Source of the DNA: Candidatus Peribacteraceae bacterium
Lineage (GTDB): Bacteria; Patescibacteriota; Gracilibacteria; Peribacterales; Peribacteraceae
Direction: 5' to 3'
DNA: 64,000 nt
Assembly (NCBI GenBank): GCA_028718905.1
Contig: JAQUKV010000004.1
Location: forward strand, 19,523 to 83,522
Shown one piece after another: positions 53,860-56,292 of this stretch. The position numbers and the translations under genes are program-made. Position 1 is the stretch's first letter, and each line of letters begins with the position of its first letter. The notes under the pieces were generated by a model. That model was not told the origin of the DNA. It did no database searches and was given only the letters and a program-made list of their open reading frames with translations.

Positions 53860-56292
53860 TCATGAAAGCGAGGTGTGCGCGGAACGGATCCCCACCAGCA
53901 GGCGGGAGTTCTTCGCGAATGGCAGATGCGACGTCTTGCGGATCAGCCAGCGCGTGACGGTGATGGCCGTGAACATGGACATGAGCACGCCCATGCCGAG
54001 CGTCACGGAAAATCCGCGCACGATCGAGGTGCCGATCACGAAGAGGATGGCACAGGTGAGCAGCGTGGAGGCATTGCCGTCCCGGATGGAGGGCCAGGCC
54101 CGCTTAAAGCCGATTTCCACCGCCGTCGTCACGAGCTTGCCCTTGCGCAGCTCCTCTTTGATGCGCTCGAAGATCAGCACGTTCGCATCCACAGCCATGC
54201 CGAGCGACAGGATGATGCCGGCCATGCCTGCCACGGTGAGCACGATGTACTGGCTCGAGAAGAAGAACAGCGGCAGCTTCAGGATGACGACGAAGAGGAT
54301 GGCGTAGCCCATGAGGGCGGCATCGGCCAGCAGACCCAAGAAGCGGTACAAAACGATCATGTAGATCATCAGGATGATGATGCCGACGAGTGCGGCCTTG
54401 AGAGAGGTGCGCAGAGCCTCGCCTCCGAGCGTGGCTTCGATCGTATGCTGGCCTGCCAGATAGATGGGGGCCGGAATCGCGCCTGTATTCAGGTCCTGGG
54501 CGAGTTTCTGGGCCTCTTCGAAATTTCCGCTGCCGGTGATGATGGCCGTGCCTCCCGCGATTTCCGTCTGCACGCGTGGAGCGGAGACCAGATCCCCGCC
54601 GACGAAGATCGCGATACGCTTGCCGACGTTGTTCTTGGTGAGCTCCTGAAAGAGTTTGGCGCCCTCGTCATCGAATGCGATCTGGACGACCGGCAGGTTC
54701 GTCGTGGAATCCAGTGTCACGGCAGCCGAACGGAAGTGCTTGCCGGTGAGGGTGGTGTCCTTCCAGCCGGTGGGCAGCAGCGAGAAGAAGATGGAACGCA
54801 CTGCAAGTGCGTCTTCGACCTGCTGCACTTTGCCCGCCTTCAAATCGGCCATTGCGGCATCCGCCTGCGTTTTCGCATCGGGTCCGGTAAAACGCAACTC
54901 GTCGTAGGAGGCGACATCGAAGGAGCGCGAAACGGCGCGGTCTGCGCGGATGACGTGGTAGCCGAATTGCGTCTCGACCGGATCGCTGAGCCCGCCTTGC
55001 GGGAGGGCAAAAGCCGCCTGCTCAAAGGGGGCCACCATCGCTCCGCGGACGAATGTACCCAGACTGCCGCCTGATTTTCCGCTGCCGTCATCCGAATACT
55101 TTTTGGCGAGCGTGGCGAAGTCCGCGCCGTTGTCGAGCTGGCTCTTGATGTCTTTTGCCAGCGTGAGCGCTTCTTCTTTGGTACGGGTCACGCTCTCTCC
55201 AACGGCGGCCGCGCCTTTGAAGGCGATGAGAATGTGGCTTGCCGCCATTTGCTCTTGTCCGGGGGTGCGCAGTCGCAGAAAGAGCAGAGCGGCCGCGTCA
55301 TTGCCCAGACTCACCGTTTGCAGGTCTCCCGGCGTCATCGACTGCAGAATCCCCGCGATTGCCGGTTCCACTTTCGCATCCAACGGAACCTCCGTATGCG
55401 GGGTGTACGTGAGCTTGTGTTCTTTGGCCAGGATTCCGAAGGCGGTCGGCGCTTCCTGTACCAGTCGTCCGGTCTGGGTGCGTGGCGAAACGGCTTCGGC
55501 GAGCCAGATGCCCGGAATCGTCTTCTCGGTCGTCTGGCCATTTTCATCCTGCTCCGGGACGGTGATGGACCCTTCGCGCTTCAGCACTTTGCCGACCGGT
55601 GTGGTCCACAGATCCTCGAGTCCCTTTGGCAGGTCCTTTTTGAAGAACCATTGCCTGTCGCTGTAGGCCACGCCGAGCGTGGAGCCGAGGTCCTGTCCCA
55701 CAAGCGGGAGCAGAGCCCCGCTCACGGTGATGCGGCGCAGGGCGGCCGTGGCACGGTCGCGGATGCTCTGTTCAAACTCCGCCGTGGGCTCCGTAAACTC
55801 CTCTTTGAATTCCAGCTGGATGGTCTTGCCGACGGTTGCGATGCACTGTTGCGTATCCACTACTCCCGGACATTCCACGAGCAGGTGTTTCTCGTCGCCC
55901 ATGTAGGAGGGGGTGATCACCGCCTCGCTCACGCCGAGTGCATTGATGCGACGCTCAAGAACGGTGCGGATGGATTCTACGATCGACGTTTGCTGCTGCT
56001 TGGTGCTCTGTAACTGATTTTGGAGAATGGCGATCTTCTCGGAACCGGCTCCCTGATCCTTTAGCTGGGCGATTTCGGCTTCCAGCCTGGCGATCTGATC
56101 ATTCATTTCCTGTTCCGAGATGCGGAAATCCAGTTGTGTGCCCCCGACTAGGTCCAAGCCGAAGTGAAAGGTGGGCGCACGCAGGATTCCGGGTGCCCAG
56201 ACTTTCCAGCCGTCCGGCAGGGCGATAAAGAGGAGCACGAGTCCGATCATGCCCGTGAGGACGGGCCAGAGGTAGCGACGGTTGGTTTCCAT
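53860..56292 (-). CDS. secD: protein translocase subunit SecD with inserted parvulin-type PPIase domain
   Basis: [10 protein letters not shown] start, C-terminal 5-TM SecD block ([24 protein letters not shown]); aa 349-452 SHILIAF...[17 protein letters not shown]...[10 protein letters not shown] is a parvulin fold signature. Confidence 0.85.
   Translation of the reverse strand: [810 protein letters not shown]

What the first reader, a model, noticed from the sequence alone, without database searches (positions are those of the whole stretch)
54937..55248. Parvulin-type PPIase domain inserted in the periplasmic domain of SecD
This SecD is 810 aa. Between the N-terminal P1 segment and the P1 C-terminal block ([25 protein letters not shown]) lies a ~340-aa insertion. 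Residues ~349-452 of it read SHILIAF...[39 protein letters not shown]...[10 protein letters not shown], a PpiC/parvulin rotamase signature. Fusing a foldase to the translocon component that pulls substrates out of SecYEG would be a direct mechanical coupling of export and folding. No secF is adjacent.
Basis: partly seen in the sequence, partly recalled or inferred. Interest (0 to 1): 0.6.

Follow-up and report, generated by a model that had tools for sequence, protein, structure and literature searches.

The report
SecD with built-in parvulin foldase module
The protein-export motor subunit SecD of this small-genome Peregrinibacteria bacterium carries a prolyl-isomerase (parvulin) folding domain spliced into its outward-facing arm. 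Many related bacteria share this design, I found no paper that describes it, and it hard-wires a partnership that model bacteria achieve with separate proteins.

Summary
The ORF at 53860-56292 (-) is an 810-aa SecD. Residues 345-451 match the Pfam parvulin families (Rotamase_3, E 8e-30) and model onto the Pin1 PPIase domain (TM 0.87, rmsd 0.9 Å). The domain lies in a 342-aa insertion between SecD_1st and the P1 head; plain SecDs of the same phylum have 10-34 aa there.

Both catalytic histidines are invariant in 47 homologs, and the window protein has Asp at the Pin1 Cys113 position. This is the only parvulin in a 99%-complete genome. secF is unlinked, lying on another contig next to the trigger-factor gene.

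The rest of the insertion is probably two degenerate parvulin-derived units flanking a canonical one. The evidence is moderate for one unit and weak for the other.

The architecture is not rare. It is near-universal in the window's class. It also occurs as compact (circularly permuted) and twin forms in Moran-, Magasanik-, Buchanan-, Falkow-, Kerfeld- and Uhrbacteria (at least 552 confirmed loci). Seven literature searches found no description of it.

Closest functional analogues are the Mycoplasma PrsA-like dome on SecDF-SecYEG, E. coli PpiD-YfgM, and PrsA. Most likely it is a foldase or holdase acting in cis at the translocon exit. I rate it a new variant of a known kind, of moderate interest.

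The parts
53860..56292 (-). secD gene, 810 aa plus stop codon
   Evidence: More than 2000 homologs of about 800 aa carry the same Pfam set and are named SecD of Candidatus Peribacter / Peregrinibacteria.
56221..56280 (-). TM1 (residues 5-24)
   Evidence: AF2 helix 5-24. W9 and P10 are nearly invariant, which supports the 810-aa start.
55978..56112 (-). Family-specific helical hairpin (coiled-coil-like, residues 61-105), between the GG-motif strand and SecD_1st
   Evidence: AF2 helices 61-79 and 84-118. Only weak coiled-coil-type Pfam hits. Low conservation, 41% identity among distant homologs.
55801..55977 (-). SecD_1st (residues 106-164), ending in LEFKEE
   Evidence: Pfam PF21760, E 7.5e-13. 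88% identity among distant homologs.
55483..55800 (-). Unit P-a (residues 165-270): probably a degenerate, circularly permuted parvulin-like unit without catalytic residues
   Evidence: An iterative HMM search seeded on the permuted parvulin of other CPR SecDs, with canonical parvulins masked, reaches residues 163-238. The E-value was 2.5e-3 at Z=10^4, obtained before any own-family sequence had entered the profile. Direct Pfam, PDB-sequence and Foldseek searches found no match. AF2 pLDDT about 90.
55261..55482 (-). Unit P-b (residues 271-344): possibly a second degenerate parvulin-like unit
   Evidence: hhalign against the 'middle' parvulin-like unit, which occupies the same position in class relatives, gives probability 46% and E 2e-4. 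The predicted order helix-strand-helix-strand-strand fits this. The evidence is weak.
54925..55260 (-). Canonical parvulin PPIase domain (residues 345-456); this is the finding itself
   Evidence: Pfam Rotamase_3 and Rotamase. Foldseek matches the Pin1 PPIase domain (TM 0.87, rmsd 0.9 Å) and PrsA. phmmer against Pin1 C113D gives 5e-19 and against PrsA 3e-18. H353 and H446 are invariant; L411, M419 and F423 are conserved; D402 lies at the Pin1 C113 position.
54775..54924 (-). Linker (residues 457-506): strand, helix, then the strand AVRSIFFSL directly before PTGWKD
   Evidence: By position and pattern this strand corresponds to the displaced beta1 strand (ASHILI / SRILFDK) that precedes the W..T.LTGK start of the P1 head in compact and twin CPR forms. 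hhalign was not significant here.
54469..54774 (-). P1 head (residues 507-608)
   Evidence: Pfam PF22599, E 3.6e-27. 79% identity among distant homologs.
53863..54468 (-). TM2-TM6 (residues 609-810), containing [17 protein letters not shown] with invariant D702
   Evidence: Pfam SecD_SecF_C. AF2 helices. Invariant columns. Foldseek matches SecDF structures 5xan, 3aqp and 5yhf.
56357..57055 (-). Upstream lipoprotein (232-aa ORF, lipobox LALAGC) with a P1-head-like C-terminal half; a conserved neighbour of secD
   Evidence: BLASTP against SecD residues 509-604: 32% identity, E 2e-7. Weak Pfam P1_head hit. The gene order NTP_transferase - lipoprotein - secD is kept in relatives whose SecD is 59-60% identical.

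Best explanation
This is the SecD subunit of the proton-driven SecDF export motor of a Peregrinibacteria (CPR) bacterium. A parvulin-derived module of about 340 aa has been inserted into the short loop that joins the SecD_1st subdomain to the mobile P1 head. The module contains one canonical parvulin domain that looks catalytically competent (residues 345-456). It is flanked by lineage-specific segments that are most likely two degenerate parvulin-like units, plus a displaced beta1-like strand.

The module lies between TM1 and TM2, so it is outside the cytoplasmic membrane, next to the part of SecD thought to grip emerging chains. The most likely function is that of a PrsA/PpiD-like prolyl isomerase and/or holdase acting in cis on polypeptides as they leave SecYEG. 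A partnership that other bacteria build from separate proteins is thereby hard-wired.

Shown here: domain identities, insertion point, topology, conserved residues, distribution, and complementarity with stand-alone parvulins. Inferred: enzymatic activity, action on translocating substrates, and any coupling to P1 movement.
For: - **Domain calls and fold.** Pfam hits are far above cut-off. Foldseek matches SecDF structures and Pin1/PrsA/SurA parvulins.
- **Active site.** H353 and H446 are invariant in 47 homologs down to 57% identity. The S400-D401 motif and the proline-pocket residues L411, M419 and F423 are conserved. The window protein has Asp402 at the Pin1 Cys113 position.
- **Insertion point.** It is a loop of 10-34 aa in plain CPR SecDs.
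- **Only parvulin in the genome.** No other Rotamase or Rotamase_3 hit exists in a 99%-complete genome.
- **Class survey.** Of 201 genomes in the class, 129 have a parvulin, almost always in a 680-1110-aa frame. Of 36 sampled loci, 30 are SecD or SecD-SecF with the same domain order.
- **Complementary distribution.** Elsewhere in the phylum most parvulins are stand-alone proteins of 290-430 aa. The two such genomes I checked have plain SecDs of 432 and 494 aa.
- **Fusion outside the class.** It also occurs in compact and twin forms, with at least 552 tblastn-confirmed loci.
- **Published analogues.** In Mycoplasma pneumoniae, PrsA-like PPIC proteins form a dome on SecDF-SecYEG. Only one PPIC domain there is catalytically intact, and substrate density contacts it (bioRxiv 10.1101/2025.04.25.650208; 10.1101/2024.09.05.611430). 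Titles and abstracts also report PpiD-YfgM association with SecYEG (PMC9643414) and SurA interaction with the Sec machinery (PMC9987972).
- **Lineage context.** Peribacteria encode many large exported proteins (PMC4736985).
Against: - No activity or substrate data exist.
- In 38 of 47 family members the residue at the Pin1 Cys113 / PrsA Asp position is Gly, with the conserved Asp one residue earlier. Catalysis in the family as a whole is therefore not assured.
- Some class members keep only a catalytically dead parvulin-like insert (L142), and the flanking units here are degenerate. This points to a role that does not need isomerase chemistry.
- The parvulin is less conserved (55% identity) than the SecD core (69-88%).
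- The AF2 model does not fix the position of the module relative to the P1 head or the membrane (pTM 0.36).
- The genome also has a lipoprotein cyclophilin, so this is not the only extracytoplasmic PPIase.
Confidence: 0.65

Rival explanations
1. The module is a chaperone or holdase only. The parvulin folds provide a binding surface for unfolded chains without catalysing prolyl isomerisation. This would resemble the inactive parvulin domains of PpiD and SurA P1, whose inactivity I cite from established knowledge.
For: Two of the three putative units have lost all catalytic residues. Most family members have Gly at the canonical Cys/Asp position. A class relative keeps a fully degenerate insert (L142). 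In the Mycoplasma dome most PPIC domains are also degenerate.
Against: Both histidines and the hydrophobic proline pocket of the canonical domain are invariant or nearly so across the family. The window protein keeps the canonical Asp. That pattern is expected of an active enzyme.
Confidence: 0.2
2. The module does not act on Sec substrates. It might instead be a structural or regulatory appendage of SecD, for example docking SecD to cell-wall or surface-layer components or to partner proteins. One candidate partner is the neighbouring P1-head-like lipoprotein. Alternatively it might modulate P1 movement.
For: The flanking segments have no recognisable fold in the PDB and are lineage-specific. 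The conserved lipoprotein neighbour with a P1-head-like domain suggests extra partners. The module's size varies widely among lineages, from about 125 to more than 340 aa.
Against: A parvulin active site conserved over a whole class is hard to explain by a docking role. In the few genomes where both were checked (own genome, G219, G207), SecD-embedded and stand-alone PrsA-like parvulins are mutually exclusive, which suggests functional replacement.
Confidence: 0.1
3. The fusion is an assembly or gene-calling artefact that joined a prsA-like gene to secD.
For: None beyond the fact that the genomes are metagenome-assembled.
Against: A single uninterrupted frame has SecD parts on both sides of the insert. 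The same architecture appears in more than 2000 independent proteins and in dozens of families from different studies.
Confidence: 0.01

Closest known systems
Canonical SecD/SecDF (Thermus thermophilus 3AQP/5YHF, Deinococcus 5XAN/5XAP, E. coli SecD in 5MG3)
   Same: TM1, a large P1 domain and five further TMs. SecD_1st, P1-head and SecD_SecF_C domains are present. The GMAVDANV motif with its invariant Asp is present. A separate SecF exists in the genome. These are the best structural matches.
   Different: A 342-aa parvulin-derived module replaces the 10-34-aa loop between SecD_1st and the P1 head. There is an extra helical hairpin at residues 61-105. secF is unlinked.
Mycoplasma pneumoniae 'dome' translocation-folding complex (PrsA-like Mdp436/444/489 on SecDF-SecYEG; bioRxiv 10.1101/2025.04.25.650208 and 10.1101/2024.09.05.611430)
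   Same: Parvulin (PPIC) domains are held directly at SecDF/SecYEG on the outer face of the membrane in a wall-less or monoderm-type, genome-reduced bacterium. Several PPIC-like units are present but only one keeps catalytic residues.
   Different: In Mycoplasma the PPIC proteins are separate lipoproteins with SurA-like helical domains, assembled non-covalently. Here the parvulin is part of the SecD polypeptide and no SurA-like domain is detectable.
PrsA (Firmicutes), PpiD-YfgM and SurA (Proteobacteria)
   Same: They carry an extracytoplasmic parvulin domain with the same fold and a TQFGYH-type motif. They are proposed to receive chains at the Sec exit. The parvulin here is 40% identical to Pin1 and PrsA PPIase domains in Foldseek alignments.
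   Different: No SurA_N / N-C chaperone domain is present. The module is anchored by SecD itself rather than by a lipid or a single TM. Where a parvulin is nested here, it is nested in other parvulin-like units, not in a helical chaperone domain.
Compact and twin parvulin-SecD forms of other CPR lineages (Moran-, Magasanik-, Buchanan-, Falkow-, Kerfeld-, Uhr-, Komeili-, Kuenenbacteria)
   Same: The insertion point is the same, as is the W..T.LTGK junction. The twin forms also place a canonical parvulin before a displaced beta1 strand.
   Different: Compact forms have a single circularly permuted, apparently active parvulin (FGYHII ... ASHILI). The window's family has about 200 aa more, its outer units have lost their catalytic residues, and secF has moved away.

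Membership tests
SecD (protein translocase subunit) | SecD_1st, SecDF_P1_head and SecD_SecF_C domains above the Pfam cut-offs, in that order | tested here: met
   48.2, 95.0 and 38.3 bits against cut-offs of 27, 27 and 20.5.
SecD (protein translocase subunit) | Topology of TM1, large extracytoplasmic P1, then five further TMs | tested here: met
   AF2 helices at 5-24 and from 620 to 800. Foldseek matches SecDF structures.
SecD (protein translocase subunit) | Conserved membrane-embedded Asp of the proton path (GMAVDANV motif) | tested here: met
   D702 is invariant in 47 homologs. Its mapping to the E. coli / T. thermophilus residue is from memory and was not aligned here.
SecD (protein translocase subunit) | Partner SecF encoded in the genome | tested here: met
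   A second SecD_SecF_C hit (E 2.4e-53) lies on contig C5, in an ORF of at most 338 aa.
Parvulin PPIase (Pfam Rotamase / Rotamase_3) | Sequence match above the curated cut-off | tested here: met
   104.2 and 85.8 bits against cut-offs of 22.5 and 21.7.
Parvulin PPIase (Pfam Rotamase / Rotamase_3) | Parvulin fold | tested here: met
   Foldseek against the Pin1 PPIase domain: TM 0.87, rmsd 0.9 Å over 108 columns. PrsA 6xd8: TM 0.91.
Parvulin PPIase (Pfam Rotamase / Rotamase_3) | Catalytic residues: two His, a Cys/Asp, and the Thr/Ser of the TxxGxH motif | tested here: met
   H353, D402, T441 and H446 are present in the window protein. The two His are invariant in the family, but position 402 is Gly in 38 of 47 relatives.
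Parvulin PPIase (Pfam Rotamase / Rotamase_3) | Measured prolyl isomerase activity | not testable with these tools
   This needs a biochemical assay.
PrsA / SurA / PpiD chaperone-PPIases | SurA_N-type helical (N-C) chaperone domain flanking the parvulin | tested here: not met
   Residues 165-346 and 456-511 give no Pfam hit at E up to 10. The profile of 165-346 has no PDB sequence match. Its model (pLDDT 90) has no Foldseek match. The predicted secondary structure is mixed alpha/beta.
PrsA / SurA / PpiD chaperone-PPIases | Own membrane anchor (lipobox or single TM) or a soluble periplasmic protein | tested here: not met
   The domain is internal to SecD, between TM1 and TM2.

The most novel reading that the evidence does not exclude
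The insert is a 'Russian doll' of three parvulin folds: an outer permuted unit, a middle unit and an inner canonical unit. It would have arisen by successive nesting at the hinge between SecD_1st and the P1 head. The single active pocket would ride on the proton-driven swing of the P1 head. Each power stroke of SecDF would then present the emerging chain to the isomerase and release it. That would amount to energy-coupled folding catalysis outside the membrane, where no ATP is available.
Probability: 0.12. Interest if true: 0.8.

Novelty: new variant of a known kind. Interest (0 to 1): 0.5.

Why it matters
How exported proteins are handed from the Sec channel to folding factors is an active question. 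Recent in-cell work in Mycoplasma and biochemistry in E. coli show PPIase-chaperones docked non-covalently on SecDF/SecYEG.

A natural covalent fusion, conserved over a whole class and recurring across the candidate phyla radiation, is independent 'Rosetta-stone' evidence that SecD and a parvulin work together. It also offers a single-polypeptide system for structural and biochemical study of export-folding coupling.

Annotation is affected too. Thousands of database entries named simply 'SecD' hide the cell's only parvulin. The series of compact permuted, twin and triple forms is a clear example of domain nesting and decay.

Tried and rejected
- **PrsA/SurA-type N-C chaperone domain around the parvulin.** Rejected. 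There was no Pfam, PDB-sequence or Foldseek match, and the predicted structure is mixed alpha/beta.
- **Direct profile-profile comparison** of residues 165-344 with the canonical parvulin and with the P1 head. No similarity was found (probability below 1%).
- **Iterative HMM search without masking.** The canonical parvulin took over the profile and the result said nothing about the flanks. I repeated it with the canonical domains masked. That result depends on a small local database and could suffer from profile drift.
- **Position of the PPIase relative to the P1 head.** The question could not be answered.
- **Assembly artefact.** Rejected because the architecture recurs in independent assemblies.
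- **Occurrence outside CPR.** I could not test this systematically. The collection scan returned only the best 80 loci, all with CPR-type architecture. Some carried record titles such as 'uncultured Gammaproteobacteria', which I take to be mislabelled bulk submissions.
- **Literature.** Seven searches found no description of a SecD-parvulin fusion. The Peribacteria genome paper does not mention it.
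Full report
**Observation.** The minus-strand ORF at 53860-56292 encodes an 810-aa protein. Pfam places five domains:
- SecD_1st at residues 106-164.
- Rotamase_3 at 345-450 (E 8.2e-30).
- Rotamase at 353-451 (E 4.2e-24, profile positions 1-96 of 97).
- SecDF_P1_head at 511-608.
- SecD_SecF_C at 616-782.

The conserved N-terminal residues (M1, W9, P10) support the 810-aa start. One database entry starts 14 residues later.

**Is it an insertion?** I built segment HMMs from an alignment of 47 homologs (A1). In three plain SecDs from the same phylum, the end of SecD_1st (L.FK.E) and the start of the P1 head (W..T.LTG) are only 10-34 aa apart. 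Here they are 342 aa apart. The module lies between TM1 (residues 5-24) and TM2 (from about 620) in the AF2 model, so it is outside the cytoplasmic membrane.

**The parvulin domain.**
- The full-length AF2 model has mean pLDDT 75, and 85-92 across the insertion.
- Foldseek matches SecDF structures (5xan, 3aqp, 5yhf). It matches the Pin1 PPIase domain at TM 0.87 and rmsd 0.9 Å with 40% identity, and also PrsA and SurA.
- phmmer's best PDB hit is the Pin1 C113D mutant (5e-19). This reflects Asp402 at the Cys113 position.
- Across 47 homologs down to 57% identity, H353 and H446 are invariant. S400, D401, L411, F423, T441 and F443 are nearly invariant, and M419 is conserved in 40 of 47.
- Position 402 is Asp in only 8 of the 47 and Gly in 38. 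The window protein therefore has the full canonical residue set, but catalysis across the family is not guaranteed.
- The strand order is canonical, with SHILIAF first.

**The rest of the insertion.**
- Residues 165-346 fold confidently on their own (pLDDT 90). They have no Pfam hit, no PDB-sequence match and no Foldseek match. They show no direct profile similarity to parvulin.
- Comparison with other CPR SecDs gives a lead. Compact forms (550-590 aa) carry a single circularly permuted parvulin...FGYHIIKK... then ...ASHILIK..., followed by the P1 head. Twin forms (about 700 aa) carry a degenerate permuted unit, a canonical parvulin and then the displaced strand.
- I masked the canonical domains and ran an iterative HMM search seeded on the permuted unit. 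It reached residues 163-238 of the window's family at E 2.5e-3 to 1.8e-4 (Z = 10^4), before any family member had entered the profile.
- Class relatives of similar length (L008, L023, L025, L029) show three units. Their middle unit aligns with residues 278-346 here (hhalign probability 46%, E 2e-4).
- The strand AVRSIFFSL directly before PTGWKD corresponds in position to the displaced beta1 strand.
- I therefore read the module as two decayed parvulin-like units around one intact unit. Confidence is moderate for the first unit and weak for the second. Profile drift on a small local database is a caveat.

**Genome context.**
- The SecD-embedded domain is the only Rotamase or Rotamase_3 hit in a genome estimated 99% complete.
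- The single FKBP domain belongs to trigger factor. Its gene follows secF on contig C5.
- The single cyclophilin appears to be a lipoprotein (MKKYYVFLIPLFALALLVGC...). A second extracytoplasmic PPIase therefore exists.
- Immediately upstream of secD is a lipoprotein whose C-terminal half resembles the P1 head (E 2e-7). The gene order NTP-transferase, lipoprotein, secD is conserved in relatives whose SecD is 59-60% identical.

**Distribution.**
- A protein search returned more than 2000 hits. The top 120 are all about 800 aa with the same Pfam set and are named SecD of Candidatus Peribacter or Peregrinibacteria (taxonomy).
- In 201 genomes sampled evenly from the window's class, 129 have a parvulin. 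Nearly all of these sit in frames of 680-1110 aa.
- Of 36 loci fetched from about 27 families, 30 are SecD with the same domain order. The forms of 1015-1110 aa are SecD-SecF fusions.
- Families with no parvulin hit have shorter SecD frames of about 525-715 aa. One of them (527 aa) carries a degenerate parvulin-like insert with no catalytic residues. Several of these families show in-frame TGA codons, which indicates the recoded lineages of the class.
- In 301 genomes of the phylum, most parvulins outside the class are stand-alone proteins of 290-430 aa. The two such genomes I checked have plain SecDs. About 15 genomes have frames of 550-720 aa, and all 13 that I sampled are SecD fusions.
- A scan of species-representative genomes with the compact form found at least 552 confirmed loci. 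The named ones belong to Buchanan-, Magasanik-, Kuenen-, Falkow-, Kerfeld-, Uhr-, Komeili- and Moranbacteria and to the Parcubacteria group.
- The scan's own notebook lists 71 earlier findings of the same fusion. I treated these as leads. I re-derived the permuted and twin architectures myself.

**Mechanism.** From established knowledge, SecDF uses the proton-motive force to move its P1 head, which is thought to hold and pull emerging chains. The module is inserted at the N-terminal connection of that head. Published work supports a PPIase at this place:
- In M. pneumoniae, PrsA-like PPIC proteins form a dome with SecDF-SecYEG. Only one PPIC domain is catalytically intact, and substrate density contacts it.
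- In E. coli, PpiD-YfgM and SurA are reported to associate with the Sec machinery (titles and abstracts).

I conclude that the module most likely acts in cis as a foldase or holdase on exported chains (confidence 0.65). A holdase-only role is the main rival (0.2). It is supported by the decayed units, by Gly at position 402 in most relatives, and by a relative that has only a dead insert (L142).

**Novelty.** The protein is a true SecD and contains a true parvulin. It is not a member of the PrsA/SurA/PpiD family, because no SurA-type chaperone domain is present. The fusion is common in public data but is annotated only as SecD. I found no paper describing it. I rate it a new variant of a known kind, with interest 0.5. 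It is not rare, and it has been seen repeatedly in this scan. It is mechanistically informative, and the three-unit, canonical-order form in this family adds a further step to the series.

Noticed in passing
window 56357-57055 (-): A lipoprotein (lipobox LALAGC) lies directly upstream of secD. Its C-terminal half is a paralog of the SecD P1 head (32% identity over 97 aa) and ends in the invariant motif IFADDVNVG. It has no TM2-6. The pairing with secD is conserved in relatives whose SecD is 59-60% identical (L136, L137).
   Followed up: partly
L001 1078-3432 (own genome, contig C5): secF is unlinked from secD and is followed 60 nt later by the trigger-factor gene. The membrane motor subunit thus neighbours the ribosome-associated PPIase-chaperone.
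   Followed up: partly
L138 about 506-1200 (-) (own genome, contig C1): The genome's only cyclophilin has a lipoprotein signal (MKKYYVFLIPLFALALLVGC) and a Pro/Thr-rich linker. It is therefore probably a surface-anchored PPIase, a second extracytoplasmic prolyl isomerase besides the SecD parvulin.
   Followed up: partly
window 55978-56112 (-), SecD residues 61-105: A family-specific helical hairpin (coiled-coil-like) is inserted between the GG-motif strand and SecD_1st. It is poorly conserved. It is absent from SecDs of most other families, where my N-terminal HMM splits around it.
   Followed up: no
L015 (G101:C3, 479-aa frame); L040 (473 aa); also G098:C12 and G148:C22: Some class members encode an extra protein of about 475-490 aa. 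It has a parvulin-like unit and a canonical parvulin, and in L015 a weak P1-head match as well, but no SecD membrane domain. It looks like a detached copy of the SecD outer module.
   Followed up: no
L142 (G020:C32, 527-aa SecD frame): This SecD has a 142-aa insert at the same point. The insert keeps the permuted-parvulin pattern but has no catalytic residues and no Pfam parvulin hit. It is a fully decayed version of the module.
   Followed up: no
L057, L058, L063, L089, L131 and others: Many public records that carry the CPR-type SecD-parvulin gene are titled 'uncultured Gammaproteobacteria', 'Bdellovibrionales', 'Lysobacteraceae' or 'Binatia'. These are probably mislabelled bulk-submitted MAGs. 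I did not verify this.
   Followed up: no
G022, G043, G011: SecD frames in some families of the same class contain 1-9 in-frame TGA codons. This is consistent with the TGA-recoded lineages of the class. Those SecDs lack the parvulin insert.
   Followed up: no
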